Source: a virus. From it: a DNA stretch of 17,475 nucleotides. This document shows, piece after piece, positions 6,633-16,608 of this stretch (the stretch's first letter is position 1; each line of letters opens with the position of its first letter). Below the pieces are notes generated by a model that saw only the letters and a list, made by a program, of their open reading frames with translations, had not been told where the DNA came from and searched no databases. Location of the stretch: the IMG/VR virus record IMGVR_UViG_3300018080_008418; one strand, 5' to 3'. The translations under genes were made by a program, and so were the position numbers.

Positions 6633-8256
6633 TGAAGCCAGTCTAGATTTCTGGATCAAGCATGGCTACAACGTCATGTTCAAGGGCCGACATGGTGTGG
6701 GCAAGACATCCATCGTCAAGGAAGCCTTCGACCGTGCGAAGTTGAAGTGGCGGTACTTCAGTGCTGCTACGATGGACCCGTGGGTGGATTTCATCGGCGT
6801 GCCGAAAGAGCAACAGAATGGTCATGGTTCCTATCTCGAATTGGTGCGCCCGATTGAGTTTCAACAGGACACGGTTGAAGCTATTTTCTTGGACGAATTC
6901 AATCGTGCCCACAAGAAGGTCCGCAATGCGGTCATGGAGCTAATTCAATTTCGCTCGATCAATGGAAAGAAATTCAACAATCTGAGGATGATCTGGGCGG
7001 CGATCAACCCGGATGAGGAAGAAGAGTACGATGTCGAGGTGCTGGACCCGGCCCAACGAGATCGCTTCCCGATCCAAGTGGAGCTTCCATACAGGCCGCA
7101 TCTGCCATACTTCATCGAGGTCTATGGCGAGGAAACCGCCCGAGGGGCCGTAAGTTGGTGGCAGGATCTCCCCGACGATCAGAAGGATTTGGTCTCGCCA
7201 CGCCGTTTGGATTACGCCCTGGACGTGCTCTCGAAGGGTGGCAACGTGCGAGACGTGGTTCCGGCCTCGGCCAATATTTCCAATTTGCTCACAACGATTA
7301 AAACCGGTCCCGTTGCGGATCGGTTGCAACGTTTCTGTGACCAGAGCGATGAAGAGGGCGCACGGAAATTCTTGGCTTCGGAGAATCAATACTCAGCCGC
7401 CATTGGCTACATAGTCTCCAAGCGAACGTACCTCGAATTCTTCGTGCCGCTGTTGGGCGACGAGAAGATCAGCCTGCTAATTGCCACAGAGAAATCCGTC
7501 TTTGATTATGCGGTCCAAGCCGCACGATTGGACCGTCGAATTCGTCAAATCATTGCGGACATCATCAGGGCGGATGCCAACAAGAAGTTGGTGAGGAAGC
7601 TGAAGAAAGAGTTTGCTGGCGACCCCAATGCACCGGCGTTGTTTGGCGCTGGCTACTTGTTGCCGACTGGCGAGTTGATTGGCGATGATACGCCTGAGAA
7701 TTCGTATTTCAAGAGTCAGATCACCTCGACAACGATGGTGGATAATTGGCACAGGCGATCCAACAACATCAGCCAGACACATGATCGCAGGAAGCTTTTG
7801 GAAGAGATTAAGGATCGCATGCCCTGTCGCCTTACAACGGATGAGGCACTGAAGATGCTTCGTGTCTTTTCCAACATTGCTGCTCGTTGTCAGCAAAAGA
7901 CGATGAAAGGTTGGGGCGGCTCCTCATTTAAGTGGGTCGGCATGGTCAATCATTGTGTTGAGCAGATCCACAAGAACGACAATGCAACGTGGCCAGAAAT
8001 GGTTGCGGCGCACAAGATCGACCAGATGGGCATTTTCGCTAAATTGGCCGAGGGCGGATTTGGCAACAAGATCTACACGCCCAACAGGAAACTGAAAGTG
8101 CCCGCAGGACAAAAGCAGCCCAATCCGCTCAAGGGGAAGAAATTCTCCAAGACCGGCAATGCCCCCGCTGTTGGGAAAACGTGCCCCAACTGTCAGGCCA
8201 TCGTGGGCTGTAGAACGAAGTTTTGTAAGTGTGGACATAAATTTTACGGACCATGA
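6625..8256 (+). CDS. MoxR-like AAA+ ATPase (AAA_5/dynein-related type) with a C-terminal zinc ribbon.
   Basis: The Walker A motif is 'GRHGVGKTS'. The Walker B and MoxR signature is 'IFLDEFNRAHKKVRNAVMELIQ'. The C-terminus reads 'GKTCPNCQAIVGCRTKFCKCGHKF', a CxxC...CxC arrangement. ATG 6625 overlaps the upstream stop and has a GAGGG RBS. Confidence 0.75.
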   Translation: MISEASLDFWIKHGYNVMFKGRHGVGKTSIVKEAFDRAKLKWRYFSAATMDPWVDFIGVPKEQQNGHGSYLELVRPIEFQQDTVEAIFLDEFNRAHKKVRNAVMELIQFRSINGKKFNNLRMIWAAINPDEEEEYDVEVLDPAQRDRFPIQVELPYRPHLPYFIEVYGEETARGAVSWWQDLPDDQKDLVSPRRLDYALDVLSKGGNVRDVVPASANISNLLTTIKTGPVADRLQRFCDQSDEEGARKFLASENQYSAAIGYIVSKRTYLEFFVPLLGDEKISLLIATEKSVFDYAVQAARLDRRIRQIIADIIRADANKKLVRKLKKEFAGDPNAPALFGAGYLLPTGELIGDDTPENSYFKSQITSTTMVDNWHRRSNNISQTHDRRKLLEEIKDRMPCRLTTDEALKMLRVFSNIAARCQQKTMKGWGGSSFKWVGMVNHCVEQIHKNDNATWPEMVAAHKIDQMGIFAKLAEGGFGNKIYTPNRKLKVPAGQKQPNPLKGKKFSKTGNAPAVGKTCPNCQAIVGCRTKFCKCGHKFYGP

Positions 8257-8474: not shown

Positions 8475-8617
8475 TGACTTACACCTGGGTGTTCATTTGT
8501 GATCTGGTGGGTGGTTGCGGGGCGGTCATCAAGATCAAGTCAGATCGGTACGGTGGGCATACCTTCATCAACTGTCCGGTGTGCCACAGAAATGCAGGGC
8601 TCAAGCACAAAGAATGA
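8474..8617 (+). CDS. Putative 47-aa zinc-ribbon protein, below the 60-aa cutoff of the ORF track.
   Basis: A GTG start follows AGGAGG at 8461-8466 by 7 nt. The product 'VTYTWVFICDLVGGCGAVIKIKSDRYGGHTFINCPVCHRNAGLKHKE' has a Cx5C...CxxC arrangement. Its stop TGA at 8615-8617 overlaps ATG 8614 of the next gene in an ATGA junction. Confidence 0.35.
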   Translation: MTYTWVFICDLVGGCGAVIKIKSDRYGGHTFINCPVCHRNAGLKHKE

Positions 8618-9879
8618 CGAACCTTCTTTCCCAAGAAGATTTTCTGAGCATCTGCATGGAGTTGGAAGAACACCATGCAGTTTTCTATCAACTCTGGACG
8701 ATGGGCAAGCCAGTCTTCACTTCGTCCGTTGAGACGGCGGCGGTGTGTTTTGACCACCAGGGGCAATGGGTGGAGTTTGTTTTCAATCCCGATTATTGGA
8801 AGGGCCTGGATCACTACCAGCGCAAGTTTGTCATCTGCCACGAGTGTTTGCATGTCATCTTGAATCACGGCTTGCGGATCAACAGTATTGGTCAGTTCAA
8901 CCATGACGCCGTGAACGCTTGTTTGGACGTGGTTGTCAACGAGTCGTTGGTGCGTGGTTTCGGATTCGACCGCAAACGCTTGGGGCGTCTCACCAAGAAC
9001 GGCTGTTGGGTGGACACCGTTTATCCCAATCGCAAAGACATCCCCGCTGATGCTGCTTTCGAGTATTACTTGAATCAGCTTCCCAAGGTGAAACTTCCCC
9101 TCCATATCGCTGGCCTACTTGGCGGCATCGACGATCACACCGGATTGGCCGGTTCGGTGTGGGAGGATGCGATTGATGAATTGGACAAACATCTCACGCC
9201 GCAGGAAAAGGAAACGCTCAAAGACTTCATCCGGCGAAATTATCAGACAGATGATGAGGGCGAGAAAGAAAGGGTGCGTCGTGGGGAAGGTTGCGGTGGA
9301 TGGTCTTTCATCAACACCGGTCCTGTCAAGAAGAAGAAGAAATGGGAGTCGGTCATAAAACGGTGGTCGAAGAAGTACGACCGAGCCGAGCTTAGGGATG
9401 TTGAGCAATGGGCAAGATTGAATCGTCGCCTCACCTCCCTGTCTTCCGATCTTATGCTTCCCAGTGAAATGGAGACGGAGCATGATATGGACGGCAAGAT
9501 CCAGGTGTGGTTTTTCCAAGACACCTCTGGCTCTTGCTGGCACCTGAAAGACCGATTCTTCAAGGCCGCACGGTCGCTGGACCCGAAACGGTTTGATGTG
9601 CGCATGTTCTGTTTCGATACCAAGGTCAAAGAAATAGACATAACCGAGGGGAAGATTTATGGAGGGGGTGGAACCCGCTTTGATATTTTGGAAACAGAAA
9701 TTCAAGCAAAACGAGCGACGAAGGGTAATTATCCCGAGGCGGTCTTCGTCATTACAGATGGCTACGGAACGCCCGTCGCCCCGGAAAAACCCGAACGATG
9801 GTATTGGTTCCTCAGTCATAGCCACCGCCGTTGCATTCCCCAAGAGTCAAATGTGTACATGCTCAATGATTTTGAATGA
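8614..9879 (+). CDS. HExxH metallopeptidase-like N-domain plus von Willebrand A (MIDAS) C-domain protein; typical partner of MoxR ATPases.
   Basis: 'VICHECLHVILNH' contains the HExxH motif. 'VWFFQDTSGSC' contains the DxSxS MIDAS motif. The first in-frame ATG is at 8614; the track's 8515 start is a GTG lying within the small zinc-ribbon ORF. Confidence 0.65.
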   Translation: MTNLLSQEDFLSICMELEEHHAVFYQLWTMGKPVFTSSVETAAVCFDHQGQWVEFVFNPDYWKGLDHYQRKFVICHECLHVILNHGLRINSIGQFNHDAVNACLDVVVNESLVRGFGFDRKRLGRLTKNGCWVDTVYPNRKDIPADAAFEYYLNQLPKVKLPLHIAGLLGGIDDHTGLAGSVWEDAIDELDKHLTPQEKETLKDFIRRNYQTDDEGEKERVRRGEGCGGWSFINTGPVKKKKKWESVIKRWSKKYDRAELRDVEQWARLNRRLTSLSSDLMLPSEMETEHDMDGKIQVWFFQDTSGSCWHLKDRFFKAARSLDPKRFDVRMFCFDTKVKEIDITEGKIYGGGGTRFDILETEIQAKRATKGNYPEAVFVITDGYGTPVAPEKPERWYWFLSHSHRRCIPQESNVYMLNDFE

Positions 9880-10284: not shown

Positions 10285-10358
10285 AGCGGGGTGGAGCAGT
10301 CCGGTAGCTCGGGAGGCTCATAACCTCCAGGTCGCAGGTTCGAATCCTGCCCCCGCCA
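10285..10358 (+). tRNA. tRNA-Met (CAT), initiator-like.
   Basis: Cloverleaf read directly: acceptor AGCGGGG pairs with CCCCGCC with an A1xC72 mismatch; U8 G9; D-arm GAGC-AGTCCGGTA-GCTC with A11:U24; anticodon arm GGAGG-CTCATAA-CCTCC; T-arm GCAGG-TTCGAAT-CCTGC; discriminator A. Confidence 0.8.
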
Positions 10359-10575
10359 CTAACTATCGCCCCACGGCGAGTCCCCAATGGGGAGCGAGTA
10401 ATCGTCAGCCGTGAATTACCGTGAGGATGGGAGAGATGTTGACAAGCCGAACAGATAGACGTAGCTGGAAATGCAGCCACCATATTATTTGGTGCCACGC
10501 TACCAGTGCGTCCTGATCGACTTGCGGCATGCAGCCGGTGAAGGACACCAAACCTGAGCCGGAAGAGATGATTAG

Positions 10576-10611
10576 AAGCCCTCGGCTCAGGTGAGCCGAG
10601 GGCTTTTTTTT
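10576..10611 (+). terminator. Rho-independent terminator.
   Basis: GAAGCCCTCGGCTCA-ggtg-AGCCGAGGGCTT is followed by T8. Confidence 0.85.
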
Positions 10612-10676
10612 GTGAAAGGAGCAGTAGGTGAACGACACCGAATGTAAAATCTGAACTTGAGGGAAAAATCGTCGCC

Positions 10677-10862
10677 GTGTATCCTGACCAAGGCGTGGTC
10701 ATGGTGAAGGACGATAAGAAGCTCGCCGATTGGCGACTTGACATCCTTGAGTACGAAGACCTAGAAGCCCTTGGCTTGGAGCCTGACTTTTGGTGGGAAG
10801 GGCAAAGAGTCAAAGTAAATTTCAAAAATGGAGAACCATCACATGTACAACTCGGAGCATGA
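10677..10862 (+). CDS. Small hypothetical protein; start uncertain (GTG 10677, or ATG 10701).
   Basis: The + ORF ends in an ATGA overlap with the next gene. No strong RBS for either candidate start. Confidence 0.35.
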   Translation: MYPDQGVVMVKDDKKLADWRLDILEYEDLEALGLEPDFWWEGQRVKVNFKNGEPSHVQLGA

Positions 10863-11182
10863 CTGACAACGTTACATTCCCCGACTGGCTGCCGCCCTAT
10901 TTGGAGCGGAGCGAGATCTTGGGGAAGCTTGCCAACTGGTTAAAGGAAGGCAAGTCGGACGAAGACATCGCCAGGATGTGGAATTCAACAGCAGAGAAAG
11001 TTCATGATCTGCGAACCCACTGGAGCATGATACGAGACGGCGAGTGCCCGCATTGCGGAGACAAGAGATACGATTGGGACAAGAAAGAATGCCCTAATCG
11101 ACGATGCATAACAAATTGGTATATTCCGCCGCATTGGAGAGAAGGCGGTAAGAAGAAAGGGAAGAAAGGGAAGAAAAAATGA
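10859..11182 (+). CDS. Hypothetical Cys-containing protein of 107 aa with a Lys-rich tail.
   Basis: ATG 10859 is in an ATGA junction. The motif 'CPHCGDKRYDWDKKECPNRRC' suggests Zn binding. Confidence 0.5.
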   Translation: MTDNVTFPDWLPPYLERSEILGKLANWLKEGKSDEDIARMWNSTAEKVHDLRTHWSMIRDGECPHCGDKRYDWDKKECPNRRCITNWYIPPHWREGGKKKGKKGKKK

Positions 11183-11226
11183 TGATGCTCAACAGGTTGA
11201 AACGCAGGGTTACGAATGGCTACACG

Positions 11227-11299
11227 CCCTCGTAACTCAGTTGGTAGAGTTGGGAGCTTTTAACTCTCGGGTCGTAGGTTCGAGTCCTACCGGGGGCAC
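11227..11299 (+). tRNA. tRNA-Lys (TTT).
   Basis: Acceptor GCCCTCG pairs with CGGGGGC; D-arm ACTC-AGTTGGTA-GAGT; anticodon arm GGGAG-CTTTTAA-CTCTC; T-arm GTAGG-TTCGAGT-CCTAC; discriminator A. Confidence 0.8.
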
Positions 11300-11355
11300 T
11301 GAGACTTTCCGACAAAATGTCCGGAGGTTACTCATATATACCTTGGAGGTGTAAT

Positions 11356-11802
11356 ATGAGTAACCCAAAGGCTAAAGGTGAAAAAGGACAAAAGGTAGTA
11401 ATAGGAGAATTGGCAAAGCATGACATTGAGGTGTTGATTCCGCTGAGCGATAACCTGCCATACGATTTGGTAATTGATTGGCAAGGCAGGCTGTTGAAGT
11501 GCCAAGTGAAGTCAAGCGACTATCGGCCTTCTAAAGCAAGTGGAATGGTGGAGTTCAGTCTGAAAACAAACAACTGGTACAAGAAAACCAGCAAGACGTA
11601 TTCAGCGGATGAGATAGATGTGATGCTTTTGTGTGACTTGCGTGATTGGAGTGTGTATGTGCTAGGTCCAAAGGATTTCGATGGACGGTCATCATTCGCC
11701 ATGCGTGACGAAGCAGCCAAGAACGGCCAAAAGAAAGGCGTCAATCTTCGTGAAGACTACTTGCTGTCAGAGGCCACCTTGACGAGAAAGCTGAGCCTAT
11801 AG
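11356..11802 (+). CDS. Putative PD-(D/E)xK-fold nuclease (Hjc/restriction-endonuclease-like core) of 148 aa.
   Basis: A GGAGG RBS lies 6 nt before ATG 11356. 'GEKGQKVVIGELAKHDIEVLIPLSDNLPYDLVIDWQGRLLKCQVKSS' matches the E...D...(E/Q)xK architecture of Hjc-like nucleases. The gene lies between tRNA-Lys and the interrupted tRNA. Confidence 0.35.
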   Translation: MSNPKAKGEKGQKVVIGELAKHDIEVLIPLSDNLPYDLVIDWQGRLLKCQVKSSDYRPSKASGMVEFSLKTNNWYKKTSKTYSADEIDVMLLCDLRDWSVYVLGPKDFDGRSSFAMRDEAAKNGQKKGVNLREDYLLSEATLTRKLSL

Positions 11803-11886
11803 CTCAATTGGTAGAGCATCGGACTTACAGGCCAGACCGCCTACAAGTTAATCCGAAGGTTTCCGGTTCGATCCCGGATGGGCTCA
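11793..11886 (+). tRNA. tRNA-Asn (GTT)-like, 94 nt, with a 21-nt insertion between nt 33 and 34. It would read Val-TAC instead if the insertion were placed at 37/38.
   Basis: A canonical body: acceptor GAGCCTA pairs with TGGGCTC; U8 A9; D-arm GCTC-AATTGGTA-GAGC; anticodon stem TCGGA pairs with TCCGA; variable loop AGGTT; T-arm TCCGG-TTCGATC-CCGGA. The anticodon loop is 28 nt, CT[TACAGGCCAGACCGCCTACAA]GTTAA. The insert can form its own AGGC/GCCT hairpin. Confidence 0.6.
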
Positions 11887-11888
11887 CT

Positions 11889-12092
11889 ATGGGAAGAAAA
11901 CAATCACCAAGTACAAAAAGGCTGCGAAAGCGGAGGATAAGTTTGGCAAAAAGGGCCAAGGAAGAGGGTGTGACCATAGAGCACCTTGAAGAATTAGACT
12001 ACCACTACCCAGACAGGGAGACAATGCAGAGTCCCTATTGTTTGTGTGAAGTGTGTATGGCCAACTTCAACAGGCGACAGAACCCTTTATAG
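11889..12092 (+). CDS. Small basic hypothetical protein of 67 aa, doubtful.
   Basis: The ATG lies 3 nt after the tRNA and has no RBS. Its TAG stop is formed by U8-A9-G10 of the downstream tRNA-His. Confidence 0.2.
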   Translation: MGRKQSPSTKRLRKRRISLAKRAKEEGVTIEHLEELDYHYPDRETMQSPYCLCEVCMANFNRRQNPL

Positions 12093-12153
12093 CTCAATGG
12101 AAGAGCGGCGGTTTGTGGAGCCGCTAGTGCAGGTTCGACTCCTGCTGAAGGGA
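12083..12153 (+). tRNA. tRNA-His (GTG), non-canonical: no encoded G-1, and A73.
   Basis: Acceptor CCCTTTA pairs with TGAAGGG; D-arm GCTC-AATGGAA-GAGC; anticodon arm GCGGT-TTGTGGA-GCCGC; T-arm GCAGG-TTCGACT-CCTGC; discriminator A. Nucleotide -1 is A. Confidence 0.65.
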
Positions 12154-12158
12154 CTAAG

Positions 12159-12572
12159 ATGAAAGAAGTGAAAGGACCGCTTTATCAAGCGAAGGGAGTG
12201 TTGAGGTATTCGGAGGGCTTCAGGTTGGTCGTTGAGGTCGATCAGGAGTTGGCGAATTACTACCGGTCGATGATACCGAAGTGGAAGGTGGTCAACCGGC
12301 AGATGTACCCAGCACACGTGACCGTCGTAAGGGGGCAAAAGGAAACGCCGCCTAATACAGAGCCATGGGAGAGATACCAAGGCGAGTTGGTTGAATACAC
12401 GTACAGCCCAATCGTGCATGAAGGCACGGTGTACTACTGGTTGAATGTGTTTTCAACAAGGTTAGAAGAGGTGAGGCGTGAACTGGGTCTTCCAGTTCAT
12501 AGCGAGTACACCTTGCCGCCCGGTGGGTTTACTAGGTGCTTTCACATGACGTTGGGGAACAAGAAAGAATGA
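12159..12572 (+). CDS. 2H phosphoesterase superfamily protein (LigT / cyclic-phosphodiesterase / Acb1-like) of 137 aa.
   Basis: Two H-x-T-x motifs flanked by hydrophobic residues, 'PAHVTVVRG' and 'CFHMTLGN', about 77 aa apart. This is the defining signature of the 2H family. The gene sits inside the tRNA cluster. Confidence 0.5.
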   Translation: MKEVKGPLYQAKGVLRYSEGFRLVVEVDQELANYYRSMIPKWKVVNRQMYPAHVTVVRGQKETPPNTEPWERYQGELVEYTYSPIVHEGTVYYWLNVFSTRLEEVRRELGLPVHSEYTLPPGGFTRCFHMTLGNKKE

Positions 12573-12997
12573 GAAAGAAAATAGAAGAAGGAAGCTTCTG
12601 GGGGAATGTGAGCACGGGCGCAGTCCGAAAAGTTACTGGCTTCTTTGTCGAGTCAGTGCAGTACAGGGAGTACAATCAAGGTTGCAAGACGGCCATCCAA
12701 GGCCAACTTCTTCCGGCCTCGTTGAGGGCTTGGGGGAAGGAGATGACCGAGGAGAATGCACGAAGGGCATTTCCCAACTTGGATGAAATTGATGCGGCCA
12801 CGGACGTAGAAAACAGCAAGCGTAATCGAAGGATTGTGCAGGCATTGAGCGACGAGATGGACATGGCCATCTTCCACGTCGAGCAGGATGTTCGTGACTT
12901 GGAAGAAGAAGTGGTTCGGGGTAAAATGAGTCACAAGGCCATCGCTCGTAAACTGGACGGTATAGCCATGAAGCTAGGAGCTTTGCAAAATGGTTGA
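12569..12997 (+). CDS. Hypothetical protein of 142 aa.
   Basis: ATGA overlap at 12569-12572 with the upstream gene. Confidence 0.5.
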   Translation: MRKKIEEGSFWGNVSTGAVRKVTGFFVESVQYREYNQGCKTAIQGQLLPASLRAWGKEMTEENARRAFPNLDEIDAATDVENSKRNRRIVQALSDEMDMAIFHVEQDVRDLEEEVVRGKMSHKAIARKLDGIAMKLGALQNG

Positions 12998-13262
12998 TTA
13001 TGCGACAGCGAAGTTGACACCGGTCGATCCAGCGGAGTTGGCGGGCAAGACGATCAAAGAAGTTGATGCATCGTCTTCCAACGTCTTGCTGATCGAGTTT
13101 ACGGATGGGACGAGTGTTGCGATTGAATCGCATCACAACTTCCATGGGATGGATCACTACGAGATTATGGAGATGACCGATGCTGTGCCCGATAACGGAG
13201 GCAGCCAAAGCCGTTTGCAAAAAATGGAATCTGGGAGACGAAAGCGTGCGAGAAGTGGCTGA
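12990..13262 (+). CDS. Hypothetical protein of 90 aa; its 3' end overlaps the next ORF by about 80 nt.
   Basis: ATG 12990 overlaps the upstream stop. The frame stays open to 13262. Confidence 0.4.
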   Translation: MVDYATAKLTPVDPAELAGKTIKEVDASSSNVLLIEFTDGTSVAIESHHNFHGMDHYEIMEMTDAVPDNGGSQSRLQKMESGRRKRARSG

Positions 13263-13365
13263 CTTGATCGCCGAGACGATTCACAAAGTTGAAGCACGGA
13301 TTGAGAATGACAGACATATAAGGATGCTGGCTGACGCCACTGGTTACGGTCCAGATTTTTCATGA
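13180..13365 (+). CDS. Hypothetical protein of 61 aa.
   Basis: A GGAG RBS lies 7 nt before ATG 13180. The stop overlaps ATG 13362 in an ATGA junction. Confidence 0.4.
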   Translation: MLCPITEAAKAVCKKWNLGDESVREVADLIAETIHKVEARIENDRHIRMLADATGYGPDFS

Positions 13366-13553
13366 ATGACAAATACGAAAAGCATGTAAAAGAGATCATC
13401 GAGGAGTTGGTTGAAGAGTATGGCGAGCAGTATCGCCTATTGCTGGAAGATGCTTGGTTTTGGGTGAAGACACGAGAACCAGTGTGGGATCTTCCCAGCC
13501 CTCTCAATCACGAAGAGTTTTTGAGGGACGTGGTGATACGAGCCACAATGTAA
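13362..13553 (+). CDS. Hypothetical acidic protein of 63 aa.
   Basis: ATGA coupling with the upstream ORF. Confidence 0.45.
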   Translation: MNDKYEKHVKEIIEELVEEYGEQYRLLLEDAWFWVKTREPVWDLPSPLNHEEFLRDVVIRATM

Positions 13554-13554
13554 A

Positions 13555-13755
13555 ATGACTTTCCAATACGAAGATGGATGTAGGGTTGAGACACAGCCGA
13601 ACCGGCCATACGGAGTGCGGGCGAGGCTCTTCAATCCTGATGGGAAGTTGGTAAAGCAGATGACGTTCGAGCCGAACGAAGAAGAACATTGGGCGGCTGA
13701 AGTCATTTATGTAAGACACTGGTTGATGAAAAATGGAAGTGTGTATTACGGGTGA
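13555..13755 (+). CDS. Hypothetical protein of 66 aa.
   Basis: The ATG lies 1 nt after the upstream stop. Confidence 0.45.
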   Translation: MTFQYEDGCRVETQPNRPYGVRARLFNPDGKLVKQMTFEPNEEEHWAAEVIYVRHWLMKNGSVYYG

Positions 13756-14005
13756 ACAGTTAAGGGTAGCATTGAAGCAGATTGAACAAGCGGAAGAGCA
13801 GGGGTTCGAGCACTGTTTGTCGATCTTTAAGATCTTTCAGGTAGGTGAATGCGTAAGCGATTGTCAAGCAAGACACGTGGGATTGATATTGCGAGCAGAT
13901 AAGGCCGACCCGAACAAGGATTGGGGTCGGATTTGCAATCAGTTCCTCGGCGACTATAGATATGTTGACGGAGAATTGATCGACATAGCTGAACAAGGTA
14001 GTTGA
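13733..14005 (+). CDS. Hypothetical protein of 90 aa.
   Basis: A + ORF that overlaps the upstream gene by 23 nt. Its stop falls inside the 5' end of tRNA-Ile. Confidence 0.4.
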   Translation: MEVCITGEQLRVALKQIEQAEEQGFEHCLSIFKIFQVGECVSDCQARHVGLILRADKADPNKDWGRICNQFLGDYRYVDGELIDIAEQGS

Positions 14006-14068
14006 AGGCTGGTGGCCTGACTGATGCTGATAACATCGGGATGTCGAGTTCGATTCTCGGAACTACCA
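13997..14068 (+). tRNA. tRNA-Ile (GAT)-like with a non-canonical D-arm.
   Basis: Acceptor GGTAGTT pairs with AACTACC; anticodon arm TGATG-CTGATAA-CATCG; T-arm TCGAG-TTCGATT-CTCGG; discriminator A. Position 8 is G and the D-loop is short. Confidence 0.5.
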
Positions 14069-14078
14069 CTGGGAGATA

Positions 14079-14360
14079 ATGATGGATTACGTAACAGGGA
14101 ATCAGAGAAAAGAGTTGATGCGTCGGCTTAAAGATCGTGGTGTAGCCTATCAGGTCTACACGAATCTGACCCAGCTTCAACTTCTTGCCAGCCAGGGAAA
14201 AGATCCTCAGCAGATCGCTTCCCAGTTAGGGGCAACTAACGAGGACGTGTTACGGGCTTTTGAAATTTTGGGGATTCGCCACAAAGCGAAGGTTGCTGAC
14301 ATGCGGAAGGTGAGGGAGGCCCTTACGAAAGTGAAAGAGGAGCCGATGAAGGGAGTATAG
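14079..14360 (+). CDS. Hypothetical protein of 93 aa, possibly a helix-turn-helix DNA-binding protein.
   Basis: A GGGAGA RBS lies upstream. 'DPQQIASQLGATNEDVLRAFEILGI' is HTH-like. Its TAG stop is formed by U8-A9-G10 of the downstream tRNA. Confidence 0.45.
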   Translation: MMDYVTGNQRKELMRRLKDRGVAYQVYTNLTQLQLLASQGKDPQQIASQLGATNEDVLRAFEILGIRHKAKVADMRKVREALTKVKEEPMKGV

Positions 14361-14424
14361 CTCAGTCGGTTAGAGCGCTAAGCTGATAACTTAGAGGTCG
14401 GAGGTTCGACTCCTCCTACTCCCA
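14351..14424 (+). tRNA. tRNA-Ile (GAT), canonical.
   Basis: Acceptor GGGAGTA pairs with TACTCCC; D-arm GCTC-AGTCGGTTA-GAGC; anticodon arm CTAAG-CTGATAA-CTTAG; T-arm GGAGG-TTCGACT-CCTCC; discriminator A. Confidence 0.8.
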
Positions 14425-14438
14425 CTAGGAGAAATGAT

Positions 14439-14690
14439 ATGTGGCTATGTGGGATCAACGACGTTCCGACGAACTGCTCCAGGTGTGGAGCCGGGATGTA
14501 CGCCCACTATGCCATTGTTGATAACCCCTTCGGGGGCGAGGCGATTTGCGAGGCATGCGAGAAACGTGAAGCCCAGGAAATCAAAATCAAAACGCAAGCG
14601 GCAAAAGGTGCATGTCAAGAAGCGCCTGCGCCAGCGTTACGGCATCGACGCCACGAAATATATCCTGGCCGAAATGACCGAGTTGGTTAG
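14439..14690 (+). CDS. Zinc-ribbon protein. Its C-terminal third overlaps a better-looking reading frame.
   Basis: A strong AGGAGA RBS lies 6 nt before ATG 14439. The product carries 'CSRCG...CEAC'. After about residue 45 the +1 frame looks more protein-like than this frame. Confidence 0.45.
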   Translation: MWLCGINDVPTNCSRCGAGMYAHYAIVDNPFGGEAICEACEKREAQEIKIKTQAAKGACQEAPAPALRHRRHEIYPGRNDRVG

Positions 14691-14943
14691 GAGTCAGCCG
14701 AATGACCACGTGCTCCTATTGAGCGATGGATACATGTCGGGGCCAAACCACTCGTGTCGCACGCATATATACAACATAATGTACATGGGCCAATGGATAC
14801 GGGTGGTCTACGATGTGGACCAGGAGAAGCTGTTGACGGCTCTCCCGCCAAAGCCACCGAAGGATTTAGAGTTTTACGACGCCAACGAGGCAAAAGCAGA
14901 GGTCGAGAAAGACCTTGACGTGAAAGTGTTGTGGAGGGAATAA
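14566..14943 (+). CDS. Hypothetical protein with a basic N-terminus. It is either an independent gene (GTG 14566, or ATG 14672) or the C-terminal part of a frameshifted fusion with 14439.
   Basis: In the +1 frame relative to 14439, 'YGIDATKYILAEMTELVRSQPNDHVLLLSDGY...' is globular-looking, while the overlapping part of frame 0 is Ala/Pro/Arg-rich. Confidence 0.4.
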   Translation: MKPRKSKSKRKRQKVHVKKRLRQRYGIDATKYILAEMTELVRSQPNDHVLLLSDGYMSGPNHSCRTHIYNIMYMGQWIRVVYDVDQEKLLTALPPKPPKDLEFYDANEAKAEVEKDLDVKVLWRE

Positions 14944-15023
14944 TTTTTGAAAACACAGGAGGATGCGATGCTGAATTGTAGTGGTTTCTTGTAAGGCAAT
15001 AACGCCTTACAGGAGACAGTACC

Positions 15024-15221
15024 ATGGCCAAACTGTACAAGCACATGGGTCTGCGTCACCCAAAAACGACGCAAGAACGACGTGAGAGCCAAGAGGGTTG
15101 GGGTCGTCCCCGAAGAAACGTAGCCAACTTGGTTGAGGCGTATGACGACGTGCCCAGGAGCATTCAACGGAGTTGGAAAGAACACAGGAAAACAAGATAC
15201 CATCGTATAAAGGATGCGTGA
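15024..15221 (+). CDS. Small basic hypothetical protein of 65 aa.
   Basis: AGGAGA lies 7 nt before the ATG, preceded by the hairpin GTAAGGC-aataac-GCCTTAC. Confidence 0.55.
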   Translation: MAKLYKHMGLRHPKTTQERRESQEGWGRPRRNVANLVEAYDDVPRSIQRSWKEHRKTRYHRIKDA

Positions 15222-15416
15222 ATGGATTGGGAACAGTTTGGGAAGGATCTCAAGAAGGCCCGTGAAGAGATCACGCTGCAAGACCTAACTCGGTCGCAGT
15301 GGGAAAGGGTTTGCAACCGGATCGCCAACTGCATTCACCAACAAATCCCTTCCAGTGATTTTGACTGGGGGAAGTTCATGAATGCCTGCGGGCTGAAGGA
15401 CAGGAAGGTGGCCTGA
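15222..15416 (+). CDS. Hypothetical protein of 64 aa.
   Basis: The ATG lies immediately after the upstream TGA; AAGGA is the RBS. Confidence 0.5.
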   Translation: MDWEQFGKDLKKAREEITLQDLTRSQWERVCNRIANCIHQQIPSSDFDWGKFMNACGLKDRKVA

Positions 15417-15646
15417 TGGAGCCAGCTAAGCGGCTGATAAGACGGAGCGTATGGGCAATGTTTTACAGCCTGGGAAACAACTTGCCGATGTACGTTTTGC
15501 TAGGCTTTGGCGCATTGATCGAGTGGTTTGGAGCAGATGTGGGAAGTTTTAAGCTTTGCACATTTTTGTTAGGGGCCTTTTTCCTACTTTCATGGTTCCT
15601 TTGGCTGAAGAGTCCTGAAGTAAACAGGAGAATGAACGATGAATGA
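15416..15646 (+). CDS. Small membrane protein of 76 aa with two predicted transmembrane helices.
   Basis: ATGA-type overlap. The hydrophobic stretches are 'MYVLLGFGALIEWF' and 'LCTFLLGAFFLLSWFLWL'. Confidence 0.5.
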   Translation: MEPAKRLIRRSVWAMFYSLGNNLPMYVLLGFGALIEWFGADVGSFKLCTFLLGAFFLLSWFLWLKSPEVNRRMNDE

Positions 15647-15983
15647 ACCTGAACTGGTTGTGCTTGGCGATACTCAGGATCGTTATACTCCTGATCCGGG
15701 CACCCACGGCATTGGGGTTGAGATTTGTTGCGGCGTGTGTGGCACCCCCATGGAGGTCTTCCGCAATGCGTTGGGGCCTCGGGGATTTGCCCAGGCGATG
15801 GGTGGTGGCAAGAGCCCGCATGATGCTTACACTTGTCCCCATCGTGGTGAGGATTGGCATGAACAAGTCGTTGCCCTGAGACAAGAGGCCAAGAAGACGC
15901 CGAGCATGCGTTTGGCCAAGATTATGTTGGAAGAAGCGGGAGATATTTTAGAGACGAAGAAGGTGACCAAGAAGATCACCTGA
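15639..15983 (+). CDS. Hypothetical Cys/His-containing protein of 114 aa.
   Basis: It overlaps the upstream gene in an ATGAATGA junction. The motif 'CCGVCG...CPH' suggests metal binding. Confidence 0.5.
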   Translation: MNEPELVVLGDTQDRYTPDPGTHGIGVEICCGVCGTPMEVFRNALGPRGFAQAMGGGKSPHDAYTCPHRGEDWHEQVVALRQEAKKTPSMRLAKIMLEEAGDILETKKVTKKIT

Positions 15984-15988
15984 TTTAT

Positions 15989-16062
15989 GGTGGGCGTAGC
16001 TCAGTTGGTAGAGCGCTGGATTGTGGTTCCAGTCGTCGCCGGTTCAAGTCCGGTCGCCCACC
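15989..16062 (+). tRNA. tRNA-His (GTG), canonical bacterial type with encoded G-1 and C73.
   Basis: G-1 followed by acceptor GTGGGCG pairing with CGCCCAC; D-arm GCTC-AGTTGGTA-GAGC; anticodon arm CTGGA-TTGTGGT-TCCAG; T-arm GCCGG-TTCAAGT-CCGGT; discriminator C. Confidence 0.8.
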
Positions 16063-16065
16063 CCT

Positions 16066-16140
16066 GTGGCCGTCCCATGCTGGTTTTGGGGCCCTGGCCG
16101 TGAACCAGGGTTACGGCGGGTTCAATTCCCCCCGGTCACC
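16066..16140 (+). pseudogene. Degenerate tRNA-like gene, possibly a pseudo-tRNA-His.
   Basis: Acceptor GTGGCCG pairs with CGGTCAC and the discriminator is C. The anticodon arm CCCTGG-CCGTGAA-CCAGGG has a 6-bp stem and C33. The T-stem has a mismatch and nucleotide 9 is missing. Confidence 0.3.
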
Positions 16141-16145
16141 TTGAT

Positions 16146-16219
16146 GCCCCTATGGCTGAATGGAACTAGGCACCTCGCTTCTAACGAGGATCATGTGGGT
16201 TCGAGTCCTACTGGGGGTA
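16146..16219 (+). tRNA. tRNA-Arg (TCT).
   Basis: Acceptor GCCCCTA pairs with TGGGGGT through G1·U72 and U6·G67 wobbles; a 3-bp D-stem; anticodon arm CCTCG-CTTCTAA-CGAGG; T-arm GTGGG-TTCGAGT-CCTAC; discriminator A. Confidence 0.65.
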
Positions 16220-16276
16220 CTCGGAGCAGACTGTAGAGATGGACTTCCGGCCACCTGTGGCCGGAAGTCCGAACAT

Positions 16277-16348
16277 AGGTCCGTGGTGTAATTGGTAGCA
16301 CGTTGCTCTCCAAAAGCAAAAGTCCGGGTTCAAGTCCTGGCGGGCCTG
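16277..16348 (+). tRNA. tRNA-Trp (CCA).
   Basis: Acceptor AGGTCCG pairs with CGGGCCT; D-arm GTGT-AATTGGTA-GCAC; anticodon arm TTGCT-CTCCAAA-AGCAA; T-arm CCGGG-TTCAAGT-CCTGG; discriminator G. Confidence 0.7.
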
Positions 16349-16414
16349 CTGGGACCAATCTTGCAAGAGAGTTTGGAGCGGTCGCCGCCGACCGTGCCCT
16401 AAACGGCGGCACAC

Positions 16415-16508
16415 AGGTGCCTAGCTCAATTGGTAGAGCACTGGTCTTTTGCCCAAACAGGCAACAAGCCAAAACCAGCGGTTGGGGGTTCGATTCCCTC
16501 GGCACCTG
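16415..16508 (+). tRNA. tRNA-Trp (CCA)-like, 94 nt, with a 21-nt insertion between nt 33 and 34.
   Basis: Acceptor AGGTGCC pairs with GGCACCT; D-arm GCTC-AATTGGTA-GAGC, Trp-like; anticodon stem CTGGT pairs with ACCAG; T-arm GGGGG-TTCGATT-CCCTC; discriminator G. The loop is CT[TTTGCCCAAACAGGCAACAAG]CCAAA. Removing the insert leaves CTCCAAA, identical to the Trp loop at 16308-16314. The insert forms a TTGCC/GGCAA hairpin. Confidence 0.6.
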
Positions 16509-16513
16509 CTTGA

Positions 16514-16608
16514 GCGCCCGTAGCTCAATGGATAGAGCAACGGACTAGAGGTCAGGCTGCCTCACAAATCTAATCCGTAGGTTGCAAGTTCGAGTCTTGC
16601 CGGGCGTG
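16514..16608 (+). tRNA. tRNA-Arg (TCT)-like, 95 nt, with a 22-nt insertion between nt 33 and 34.
   Basis: Acceptor GCGCCCG pairs with CGGGCGT; D-arm GCTC-AATGGATA-GAGC, matching the layout of Arg-UCU tRNAs; anticodon stem ACGGA pairs with TCCGT; T-arm GCAAG-TTCGAGT-CTTGC; discriminator G. The loop is CT[AGAGGTCAGGCTGCCTCACAAA]TCTAA. Removing the insert leaves CTTCTAA, identical to the loop of the Arg tRNA at 16146. Confidence 0.6.

What the first reader, a model, noticed from the sequence alone, without database searches (positions are those of the whole stretch)
12159..12572. 2H phosphoesterase (LigT/CPDase/Acb1-like) gene inside the tRNA cluster
The double HxTx signature ('AHVTVV' and 'FHMTLG') is diagnostic of the 2H superfamily. 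Members of this family open or form 2',3'-cyclic phosphate ends, as in tRNA ligase CPDase domains and LigT. Phage members such as T4 Acb1 degrade cyclic-oligonucleotide immune signals. Here the gene begins 6 nt after a tRNA-His and lies within 300 nt of an insertion-bearing tRNA. That raises two hypotheses: healing of tRNA halves produced by anticodon nucleases or by excision of the inserts, or anti-CBASS/anti-cOA activity.
Basis: partly seen in the sequence, partly recalled or inferred. Interest (0 to 1): 0.65.

Follow-up and report, generated by a model that had tools for sequence, protein, structure and literature searches.

The report
Mini 2H phosphoesterase in phage tRNA cluster
This is a real gene for a very small two-histidine (2H) phosphoesterase, part of a large family nearly confined to huge phages, and its neighbours point to repair of broken tRNA ends, a role already predicted for such enzymes but never tested.

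Summary

By sequence it belongs to neither the LigT/ThpR nor the Acb1 family. Its nearest curated family is Pfam PF22547 (2H-SAK); the window protein scores below that family's threshold, but close relatives pass.

The family has about 1,000 clusters at 50% identity. Members are stand-alone proteins of about 130 aa and are almost entirely phage-borne, many on contigs over 200 kb.

Across 52 lineages, 25 have a tRNA-related neighbour:
- a tRNA within 600 nt in 12 lineages;
- an HD-less CCA-adding enzyme directly upstream in 6 (within 4 kb in 10);
- an RNA ligase within 6 kb in 6;
- one in-frame fusion to a DUF4326 phosphatase-like domain.

The best reading is healing of 2',3'-cyclic-phosphate tRNA/RNA ends. 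An Acb1-like role in destroying immune signals is not excluded. A dedicated role in removing the tRNA inserts is unlikely. Jumbo-phage 2H enzymes were already predicted to do this, so this is a new member of a known kind.

The parts
12159..12572 (+). Gene for a 137-aa stand-alone 'mini' 2H phosphoesterase (stop codon included)
12312..12332 (+). First catalytic motif, A52-H53-V-T55-V-V-R58 (HxTxxR)
   Evidence: H53 167/168, T/S55 168/168, R58 167/168. It lies on strand E53-57 of the model. hhalign aligned it to the ThpR distal motif HITLLR, whose Arg130 is essential (PMC4201822).
12540..12566 (+). Second catalytic motif, F128-H129-M-T131-L-G-N134-K-K136 (HxTxxNxK)
   Evidence: H129 166/168, T/S131 166/168, N134 and K136 159/168 each. 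It lies on strand E128-134.
12083..12154 (+). tRNA-His(GTG) immediately upstream. Its 3' acceptor strand (GAAGGGA, 12147-12153) is the only Shine-Dalgarno-like sequence ahead of the ATG.
   Evidence: ARAGORN and Rfam at 65.5 bits. Sequence read. No sigma-70-like promoter was found between the tRNA and the ATG. Co-transcription with the tRNAs is inferred, not shown.
10285..16608 (+). Surrounding cluster of 12 tRNA genes, all on the same strand as the 2H gene and none encoding a 3'-CCA
11793..11887 (+). 95-nt tRNA with a 21-nt hairpin-containing insert in the anticodon loop, 271 nt upstream. It is a neighbour and is not shown to be a substrate.
   Evidence: Rfam tRNA at 62.7 bits with a 22-nt insertion in the loop. 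Fold. ARAGORN intron mode.
12569..12997 (+). Downstream 142-aa ORF whose ATG overlaps the 2H stop (ATGA). It is probably translationally coupled, has no known family, and is not a conserved partner.
   Evidence: Called on L001-L003. No Pfam match. No cross-lineage cluster.

Best explanation
The ORF encodes a minimal, stand-alone member of the 2H (two-histidine) phosphoesterase superfamily. It consists of two copies of a beta-beta-alpha-beta unit, each carrying one Hx(T/S) motif on its last strand.

By analogy with characterised 2H enzymes, H53 and H129 would act as general acid and base in metal-independent hydrolysis of a 2',3'-cyclic phosphodiester. The invariant R58 (HxTxxR, as in ThpR) would stabilise the transition state. 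This chemistry is inferred, not shown.

The most likely substrate is the 2',3'-cyclic-phosphate end left on tRNA or other RNA by metal-independent host ribonucleases such as anticodon nucleases, acceptor-end nucleases or HEPN-type effectors. Opening the ring gives a phosphomonoester. A separate phosphatase (DUF4326, HAD or a host enzyme) or Tpt1/KptA then removes it. After that the phage CCA-adding enzyme can rebuild a 3' end, or an ATP-dependent RNA ligase can reseal a broken loop.

In this window the gene starts 4-5 nt after a tRNA, on the same strand, with no promoter-like site in between. It is therefore probably transcribed with the tRNA cluster. All twelve tRNAs lack an encoded CCA and depend on a CCA-adding enzyme.

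Shown: gene reality, superfamily membership, motif conservation and gene neighbourhoods. Inferred: the substrate, the product and the partnership with the CCA-adding enzyme or ligase.
For: Superfamily:
- Both HxT/S motifs are almost invariant.
- The AF2 model has pLDDT 93 and pTM 0.85, with topology E-E-H-E twice.
- 90 of 133 members hit Pfam 2H-SAK (best E 1.7e-8), 12 hit 2_5_RNA_ligase2 and 5 hit LigT_PEase.
- Relatives 55-62% identical carry a precomputed PF22547 assignment, and one is named '2'-5' RNA ligase'.
- BFVD hits include an 'SAK 2H phosphoesterase domain-containing protein'.

Context in 52 dereplicated lineages:
- A tRNA lies within 600 nt in 12 lineages whose 2H proteins are only 30-72% identical to each other. 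These include the 595-kb phage LR756511, with 32 tRNAs in 24 kb. The 546-kb contig L082, found separately and not among the 52, shows the same arrangement.
- A CCA-adding enzyme with PolyA_pol head and RNA-binding domains, and no HD domain detected, lies directly upstream on the same strand in 6 lineages and within 4 kb in 10.
- A PF09414 RNA ligase lies within 6 kb in 6 lineages, abuts the gene in L050, and is also near on the P0011 contig.
- In Rak2-like phages the order RNA ligase, DUF2828, 2H, then CCA enzyme, NUDIX and macro is conserved.
- In the remaining lineages, neighbours within 2.5 kb include RlaP x2, another PolyA_pol, another RNA ligase, a Glu/Gln-tRNA synthetase and a PP-loop enzyme.
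- L012 has an in-frame DUF4326-2H fusion. DUF4326 is predicted to be a rhodanese-type phosphatase acting on terminal ribose phosphates (PMC9503650).

Other support:
- The HxTxxR motif matches the essential Arg130 motif of the RNA cyclic phosphodiesterase ThpR.
- Iyer et al. 2021 (PMC7824862) independently predict that jumbo-phage 2H enzymes clear 2',3'-cyclic ends for ATP-grasp RNA ligases.
Against: - There is no biochemical data for any member of this family.
- Foldseek against the PDB and HMM searches against PDB sequences found no 2H enzyme.
- The window protein scores 17.9 bits against 2H-SAK, below the 27-bit cutoff.
- No RNA ligase, kinase or CCA-adding enzyme lies within the 17.5-kb window.
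- 27 of 52 lineages show no tRNA, CCA-enzyme, ligase or DUF2828 linkage within the distance limits used.
- The six lineages with a directly adjacent CCA enzyme form one syntenic clade (2H identity 58-81%), so they are not six independent events.
- T4 Acb1 (57B) itself lies 1.4 kb from the T4 tRNA cluster, so proximity to tRNAs alone does not discriminate.
- The R58 motif sits on the first lobe, whereas in ThpR the equivalent Arg is on the second.
Confidence: 0.55

Rival explanations
1. Acb1-like counter-defence enzyme. The protein degrades cyclic or 2'-5'-linked oligonucleotide immune messengers (CBASS cGAMP or cA3, type III CRISPR cOA, Panoptes or Pycsar signals) and has nothing to do with tRNA ends.
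For: - It is a small stand-alone viral 2H protein of the same size class as Acb1.
- Acb1 of phage RisingSun appears among the BFVD hits.
- T4 acb1 (57B) also lies close to a tRNA cluster.
- Doherty et al. 2025 show that many divergent phage 2H enzymes cleave immune messengers.
Against: - There is no sequence-level relationship to T4 Acb1 (hhalign probability 7.6%).
- The nearest curated family is 2H-SAK.
- The recurrent, same-strand, abutting neighbours are a CCA-adding enzyme, an RNA ligase, RlaP and a phosphatase-like domain, which are not expected partners of a messenger nuclease.
- Two structural groups of phage 2H enzymes in Doherty et al. were inactive on all 18 messengers tested, so not all phage 2H proteins are messenger nucleases.
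- The structural scores do not favour Acb1 over RNA-end enzymes.
Confidence: 0.2
2. Enzyme for ADP-ribose-derived cyclic phosphates. [quoted passage not shown] It would work like yeast Cpd1 or plant CPDase, with DUF4326, NUDIX and macro proteins finishing the breakdown.
For: - NAD/ADP-ribose genes recur nearby: SIR2, NUDIX, ADP-ribosylglycohydrolase, an NMN-transporter fragment and a macro 'ADP-ribose binding protein'.
- DUF4326 lies within 10 kb in 5 lineages and is fused to 2H in L012.
- DUF4326 is predicted to act on terminal ribose phosphates of ADPr products (PMC9503650).
- Iyer et al. note that 2H and macro domains process ADPr>p downstream of KptA.
Against: - These NAD-related neighbours are less frequent and less tightly placed than tRNAs and the CCA enzyme.
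- No KptA/Tpt1 was identified near any family member in the census.
- Yeast and plant CPDases have Tyr where this family has the ThpR-like Arg.
- This role partly overlaps with RNA repair rather than excluding it.
Confidence: 0.12
3. Dedicated splicing factor. [quoted passage not shown]
For: The 2H gene shares a tRNA cluster with insert-bearing tRNAs in three lineages: the window (3 tRNAs), L017 (1) and L082 (3). A PD-(D/E)XK_5 nuclease gene abuts the first insert-bearing tRNA in the window.
Against: - At least eight tRNA clusters that contain the 2H gene have no such inserts: L009, L020, L037/39, L046, L051, L058, L071 and L075.
- Most family members are not next to any tRNA.
- The inserts do not fold into a canonical bulge-helix-bulge.
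- There is no evidence that the inserts are removed at all.
- PD-(D/E)XK_5 is a family that includes intron-homing DNA endonucleases (recalled from memory), and such genes are common in phage tRNA clusters, for example T4 segB.
Confidence: 0.05

Closest known systems
Pfam PF22547, 2H-SAK ('Swiss Army Knife' 2H phosphoesterase domain; from memory, defined in Burroughs & Aravind 2016, a paper not held in the library)
   Same: It is a short 2H domain (model length 124) with the same two HxT/S motifs. 90 of 133 family members match it at E<=0.01, with a best E of 1.7e-8. Relatives 55-62% identical to the query are already assigned to it. The setting is phage-borne and RNA-repair related.
   Different: The window protein itself scores 17.9 bits, below the 27-bit gathering threshold, and only over its C-terminal lobe (residues 88-136). 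Members here are stand-alone, not part of a multidomain protein.
E. coli ThpR (LigT) and the archaeal/bacterial LigT subfamily of RNA 2',3'-cyclic phosphodiesterases
   Different: There is no profile-level sequence relationship (hhalign probability 6.0%). This protein has 137 aa against 176. The HxTxxR motif is on the first lobe instead of the second, and there is no HxTxxF motif. The family is phage-restricted, with only 4 MAG contigs among 185,579 species genomes.
Phage T4 Acb1 (gene 57B) and related anti-CBASS 2H nucleases
   Different: There is no profile-level relationship (probability 7.6%). T4 Acb1 has HITLSY where this family has HxTxxR. The gene neighbours here are tRNA- and RNA-repair enzymes.
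CPDase domain of fungal/plant tRNA ligase (Trl1/AtRNL), and T4 Pnkp plus Rnl1 as the classic phage tRNA repair pathway
   Same: The proposed role is the same: healing a 2',3'-cyclic phosphate on broken tRNA so that an ATP-dependent ligase can seal it (background from PMC4201822, and PMC7824862).
   Different: Here the healing enzyme is a separate 137-aa protein and is not fused to a kinase or ligase. T4 Pnkp uses a DxDxT phosphatase rather than a 2H domain. No kinase partner was identified here.
HD domain of the E. coli-type CCA-adding enzyme (2',3'-cyclic phosphodiesterase, 2'-nucleotidase and phosphatase activities; recalled from memory and reflected in the product name of GAP32_186)
   Same: It would provide a phosphoesterase activity physically coupled to CCA addition, allowing repair of tRNA 3' ends. 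Here that role would be supplied in trans by the gene immediately downstream of HD-less CCA enzymes.
   Different: The fold is unrelated (HD metal-dependent versus 2H metal-independent). The partnership is inferred from gene order only.

Membership tests
2H phosphoesterase superfamily | Two Hx(T/S)x motifs flanked by hydrophobic residues and conserved across homologues | tested here: met
   H53 167/168, T/S55 168/168, H129 166/168, T/S131 166/168. Both His are invariant in the 24 close homologues.
2H phosphoesterase superfamily | Internally duplicated two-lobe fold, with each His motif on a beta-strand, and structural similarity to solved 2H enzymes | tested here: met
2H phosphoesterase superfamily | Metal-independent cyclic phosphodiesterase or phosphoesterase activity | not testable with these tools
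   This needs an enzyme assay.
Pfam PF22547 2H-SAK | Score at or above the curated gathering threshold (27 bits) | tested here: inconclusive
   The window protein scores 17.9 bits, E 0.0038, so it is below threshold. However, 90 of 133 family members match at E<=0.01 with a best E of 1.7e-8, and relatives 55-62% identical carry the precomputed assignment. The family straddles the threshold.
LigT/ThpR subfamily | Sequence-profile membership (PF02834 or PF13563, or similarity to ThpR) | tested here: not met
   hhalign against ThpR gives probability 6.0%. Only 5 of 133 members hit LigT_PEase and 12 of 133 hit 2_5_RNA_ligase2, all weakly. The PDB HMM searches found no LigT.
LigT/ThpR subfamily | Extended motifs: proximal HxTxxF and distal HxTxxR (PMC4201822) | tested here: not met
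   HxTxxR is present and invariant but on the proximal motif (H53..R58). The distal motif is HxTxxNxK, and there is no HxTxxF.
Acb1 (anti-CBASS 2H nuclease) | Sequence-profile similarity to T4 or FBB1 Acb1 | tested here: not met
   hhalign against T4 57B gives probability 7.6% and aligns non-equivalent lobes. No PHROG is shared; the query falls in phrog_12204, of unknown function.
Acb1 (anti-CBASS 2H nuclease) | Structural similarity closer to Acb1 than to other 2H clades | tested here: inconclusive
Acb1 (anti-CBASS 2H nuclease) | Cleavage of cyclic di- and trinucleotide messengers | not testable with these tools
   This needs an enzyme assay. The family could not be mapped onto the groups tested by Doherty et al. 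2025.
Phage RNA/tRNA repair module (functional class) | Conserved linkage to an RNA ligase, CCA-adding or RlaP nucleotidyltransferase, end-processing phosphatase, or tRNA genes | tested here: met
   25 of 52 lineages have a tRNA within 2 kb, a CCA enzyme within 4 kb, a ligase within 6 kb, or an adjacent DUF2828. Further RlaP, PolyA_pol and ligase neighbours occur in the remaining lineages. L012 carries a DUF4326 fusion. None of these protein partners lies inside this window.

The most novel reading that the evidence does not exclude
A clade of huge phages carries tRNA genes split in or next to the anticodon by 21-22-nt hairpin inserts. There are seven examples in three lineages, with positions that differ between tRNAs. 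These phages would mature the tRNAs by a protein-only cut-and-rejoin pathway that they bring themselves. In that pathway this 2H enzyme heals the 2',3'-cyclic phosphate on the 5' half, which would amount to a bacterial-virus counterpart of archaeal and eukaryotic tRNA splicing.
Probability: 0.06. Interest if true: 0.8.

Novelty: new member of a known kind. Interest (0 to 1): 0.33.

Why it matters
Phages with large genomes carry their own tRNAs and tRNA-repair enzymes to survive host nucleases that shut down translation. This protein belongs to a very large, almost entirely phage-borne family, about 1,000 clusters at 50% identity, that annotation pipelines leave as 'hypothetical' because no NCBIfam model exists and the Pfam score is borderline.

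The neighbourhood census gives a concrete and cheap test. The question is whether a 130-aa 2H enzyme, paired with an HD-less CCA-adding enzyme or an Rnl2-type ligase, forms a minimal tRNA end-repair module. Alternatively it may be another immune-messenger nuclease. Either answer would assign a function to a widespread huge-phage gene. It would also help to sort the growing list of viral 2H enzymes into RNA-repair and counter-signalling classes.

The finding does not change current concepts. Comparative genomics had already predicted RNA-end healing for jumbo-phage 2H domains.

Tried and rejected
- **Sequence searches against solved structures.** A single-sequence search and two profiles (A1, A2) found no 2H enzyme, only chance hits such as Pfs230, a mannanase and TrmK.
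- **Megablast of the region against sequenced phages.** No match.
- **NCBIfam.** No model matches this family or T4 Acb1.
- **A conserved operon partner.** The translationally coupled downstream 142-aa ORF, the 67-aa ORF between the tRNAs and the other small window ORFs have no cross-lineage clusters. A conserved 'antisense ORF' (12087-12419, minus strand; cluster 2) is a shadow of the 2H coding frame and was rejected as a gene.
- **Further domain fusions.** The longer family members appear to have miscalled starts or unrelated N-terminal extensions. None other than L012 contains DUF4326.
- **Literature on short anticodon-loop inserts in phage tRNAs.** Nothing relevant was found.
- **Burroughs & Aravind 2016 (PMC5062991).** Not held, so statements about the SAK system rest on the Pfam name and on memory.
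- **Supplements of Doherty et al. 2025.** They do not mention GAP32, Munch, RaK2, Atu_ph07 or phage G, so the family could not be mapped to their tested groups.
- **ARAGORN intron mode across all loci.** Most 'intron' calls were misparsed long variable arms and were discarded.
- **The search for related loci with the broad alignment A2.** It failed because no stretch was conserved enough. A1 was used instead.

Full report

Yes. ORF 12159-12572 (+) starts with ATG and encodes 137 aa.

The gene sits in a same-strand cluster of 12 tRNA genes spanning 10285-16608. ARAGORN finds 11 of them and Rfam adds one at 16514-16608. tRNA-His(GTG) ends at 12153 or 12154, so the ATG follows after 4-5 nt rather than 6. 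The nearest insert-bearing tRNA (11793-11887) ends 271 nt upstream.

The only Shine-Dalgarno-like sequence (GAAGGGA, 12147-12153) is the 3' acceptor strand of the tRNA. No sigma-70-like promoter lies between the tRNA and the ATG. Co-transcription with the tRNAs is therefore likely, but it is inferred. The stop codon overlaps the ATG of a 142-aa ORF (ATGA at 12569-12572).

**2. Is it a 2H phosphoesterase?**

Two HxT tripeptides alone could arise by chance, so I tested conservation and fold.

- An identical protein is called on three public metagenome contigs.
- In 24 homologues of 54-74% identity both His are invariant, and the +2 residue is always T or S.
- An exhaustive profile search found 1,026 clusters at 50% identity with E<=1e-3 and 577 with E<=1e-10. 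Nearly all are stand-alone proteins of 125-145 aa.
- In 168 diverse members the counts are H53 167, T/S55 168, R58 167, H129 166 and T/S131 166. Y82, Y92, R106, N134 and K136 are each at least 94% conserved.
- AlphaFold2 gives pLDDT 93 and pTM 0.85, with a duplicated beta-beta-alpha-beta layout and each His motif on the last strand of its repeat.

Foldseek and sequence-only PDB searches missed all of these. This family is therefore a divergent, minimal version of the fold.

**3. Which 2H family?**

Pfam gives the window protein only a sub-threshold hit to PF22547 (2H-SAK): 17.9 bits against a 27-bit cutoff, covering the C-terminal lobe only. Across the family the picture is clearer. 90 of 133 members hit 2H-SAK (best E 1.7e-8), against 12 for 2_5_RNA_ligase2 and 5 for LigT_PEase. 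Relatives 55-62% identical to the query already carry a precomputed PF22547 assignment, and one is named '2'-5' RNA ligase' by JGI.

Profile comparison with E. coli ThpR and T4 Acb1 gives probabilities of 6.0% and 7.6%. In both cases the first lobe of this family aligns to the second lobe of the reference, which is a symptom of the fold's internal symmetry. The protein is thus a borderline member of the 2H-SAK family and not a sequence-level member of LigT or Acb1.

One detail leans toward RNA-end enzymes. The invariant H53-x-T-x-x-R58 reproduces the ThpR distal motif HxTxxR, whose Arg130 binds the phosphate and is essential (PMC4201822). T4 Acb1 has HITLSY at that position. In this family the motif sits on the other lobe, so this is only suggestive.

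**4. Distribution**

Among sequenced phages, tblastn hits occur only in jumbo phages of 340-600 kb. These are the Rak2-like group (GAP32, CBB, K64-1, Munch, 7t3), Bacillus phage G, Atu_ph07, RsoM2USA, Phosso and the uncultured 595-kb phage LR756511 at 43% identity.

IMG/VR yielded 67 loci. Of their 46 lineages, 16 are on contigs of at least 200 kb. T4-type major capsid (Gp23), gp32 and UvsX/RecA genes recur nearby.

A scan of one genome per 185,579 prokaryotic species found only four MAG contigs. Two of them are 383 and 546 kb and look like mis-binned huge phages. PHROG 12204 (function unknown) covers the family, and NCBIfam has no model.

**5. Gene context**

I dereplicated the loci into 52 lineages (less than 90% 2H identity between lineages). 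I then scored tRNAs with ARAGORN and neighbouring proteins by all-against-all ORF clustering, followed by Pfam annotation.

- **tRNAs.** One lies within 600 nt in 12 lineages whose 2H proteins are only 30-72% identical, so this is not the synteny of a single clade. Examples are LR756511, with 32 tRNAs in 24 kb and the nearest 365 nt away, plus L020, L037/39, L046, L051 and L058. The MAG contig L082, found separately, has 24 tRNAs in 16 kb with one starting 34 nt after the stop. If 5-10% of a huge-phage genome lies that close to a tRNA, which is my rough assumption, 12 of 52 gives a binomial P between 8e-6 and 5e-3. Lineages are not fully independent.
- **CCA-adding enzyme.** The most frequent protein neighbour other than the capsid is a class II CCA-adding enzyme with PolyA_pol head and RNA-binding domains, and no HD domain at E<=0.01. 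It is always on the same strand. It lies directly upstream (0-306 nt) in six lineages, which form one clade with 2H identity of 58-81%. It lies within 1.3-3.6 kb in four more distant lineages.
- **RNA ligase.** A PF09414 ligase lies within 6 kb in six lineages, abuts the 2H gene in L050, and is also near on the P0011 contig.
- **Rak2-like phages.** The order RNA ligase, DUF2828/DUF7788 protein, 2H, then hibernation factor, CCA enzyme, NUDIX and macro protein is conserved.
- **Union.** 25 of 52 lineages show at least one of these links.
- **The other 27 lineages.** Neighbours within 2.5 kb still include RlaP (twice), another PolyA_pol, another RNA ligase, a Glu/Gln-tRNA synthetase, a PP-loop enzyme, YqeY (twice), NUDIX (twice) and an ADP-ribosylglycohydrolase. 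No CBASS-related or cyclic-nucleotide-related theme appeared.
- **Fusion.** In L012 (62% identity to the query) a DUF4326 domain (78.7 bits) runs in frame into the 2H domain with no stop codon. DUF4326 also lies within 10 kb in four other lineages and on the P0011 contig. Iyer et al. 2022 place DUF4326 in the rhodanese-phosphatase superfamily and predict that it removes terminal phosphates on ribose. That fits a two-step chemistry of opening a cyclic phosphate and then removing the monoester.

The window itself contains no ligase, kinase or CCA enzyme. None of its 12 tRNA genes encodes CCA, so all of these tRNAs depend on a CCA-adding enzyme.

**6. Mechanism and rivals**

The best-supported reading, at confidence of about 0.55, is an RNA or tRNA 2',3'-cyclic phosphodiesterase. 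It would heal ends made by metal-independent host nucleases so that a CCA-adding enzyme or an ATP-dependent ligase can finish the repair. The adjacency to HD-less CCA enzymes suggests that the 2H protein may supply in trans what the HD domain supplies in E. coli-type CCA enzymes. That part rests on my memory of the HD-domain activities and on gene order alone.

- **Acb1-like rival (about 0.2).** It stays open because structure cannot discriminate, because T4 acb1 also lies 1.4 kb from a tRNA cluster, and because many divergent phage 2H enzymes cleave immune messengers (Doherty et al. 2025). That study also found two structural groups with no activity on 18 messengers.
- **Appr>p or ADP-ribose-derived cyclic phosphate role (about 0.12).** This is compatible with the NAD-related neighbours and partly overlaps with RNA repair.
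- **Insert-excision idea (about 0.05).** Genuine 21-22-nt anticodon-loop inserts occur in only three 2H-containing clusters: the window, L017 and L082. At least eight other such clusters have none.

**7. Novelty**

Iyer et al. [quoted passage not shown] They predicted that these enzymes clear 2',3'-cyclic ends for ATP-grasp ligases. Pfam curates the nearest family. Doherty et al. 2025 surveyed the diversity of viral 2H enzymes.

What this analysis adds is a quantified neighbourhood census, covering tRNA clusters, HD-less CCA enzymes, the ligase and the DUF4326 fusion, together with the ThpR-like HxTxxR motif. I rate the finding as a new member of a known kind, with interest of about 0.33. It is correct and testable, but it would not surprise a specialist.

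Noticed in passing
window 11793-11887, 16415-16509, 16514-16608; L017 7689-7782; L082 1006-1101, 8685-8779, 13897-13993: Seven tRNA genes in three related huge-phage lineages carry 21-22-nt inserts inside the anticodon loop. Each insert has a 4-6-bp hairpin followed by about 5 nt (ACAAG, ACAAA, CUAGAA, ACAGA or AUGAC). Keeping the first 2 and last 5 loop nucleotides gives GUU (window A, L082_b), UCU (window C, L082_c) and CCA (window B). The L017 and L082_a tRNAs have initiator-like bodies and give CAU only if the insert sits inside the anticodon. The inserts are too short for group I introns and show no canonical bulge-helix-bulge. No literature was found.
   Followed up: partly
window 11317-11802 (+): A 161-aa PD-(D/E)XK_5 endonuclease (PF11645, E 1.5e-22) lies between tRNA-Lys and the first insert-bearing tRNA, and its stop overlaps the tRNA start by 10 nt. 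A relative sits in the tRNA cluster of L039. It is probably a free-standing homing-type nuclease like T4 segB in the T4 tRNA cluster, but that was not tested.
   Followed up: partly
window 12083-12153, 15990-16062 and 16066-16140: There are three tRNA-His(GTG) genes of two kinds. The one next to the 2H gene has no G at position -1 and has A as discriminator. The other two begin with an extra G and have a C discriminator, which is the usual bacterial pattern. This may reflect host range or identity rules.
   Followed up: no
window 10285-16608 (all 12 tRNA genes): No tRNA gene encodes a 3'-CCA, and 9 of 12 have 'CU' immediately after the discriminator. This suggests a common 3'-processing signal and obligatory CCA addition.
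   Followed up: no
L012 8972-9628: A DUF4326 domain and the 2H domain form one in-frame protein of about 219 aa with no stop between them. It is the only such fusion seen.
   Followed up: yes
L026 15470-15564, 17676-17770, 19111-19199; L039 17357-17444; L071 6022-6112, 6121-6210, 8287-8378; L075 7515-7609: These are phage tRNAs for Met, Ile(UAU), Thr and Asn with long variable arms (88-95 nt), a feature normally limited to Leu, Ser and Tyr tRNAs in bacteria.
   Followed up: no
window 3-713, 1538-2053, 2208-2852, 5702-6280, 6625-8256, 8515-9879: Upstream of the tRNA cluster lie two sigma-70-like factors (regions 2 and 4), a JAB deubiquitinase-like protein next to a ThiF/E1-like protein, and an AAA+ ATPase followed by a DUF2201 metallopeptidase-like protein. 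The last pair is shared with L017.
   Followed up: no
L078 (phage T4 70000-80000), 57B at 3953-4411 (-): T4 acb1 (57B, still annotated 'RNA ligase') lies about 1.4 kb from the T4 tRNA cluster. Closeness of a phage 2H gene to tRNAs is therefore not by itself evidence for a tRNA-related function.
   Followed up: partly
window 12087-12419 (-): A 110-aa antisense ORF inside the 2H gene recurs in 10 lineages. It is a shadow of the conserved coding frame and not a separate gene.
   Followed up: yes
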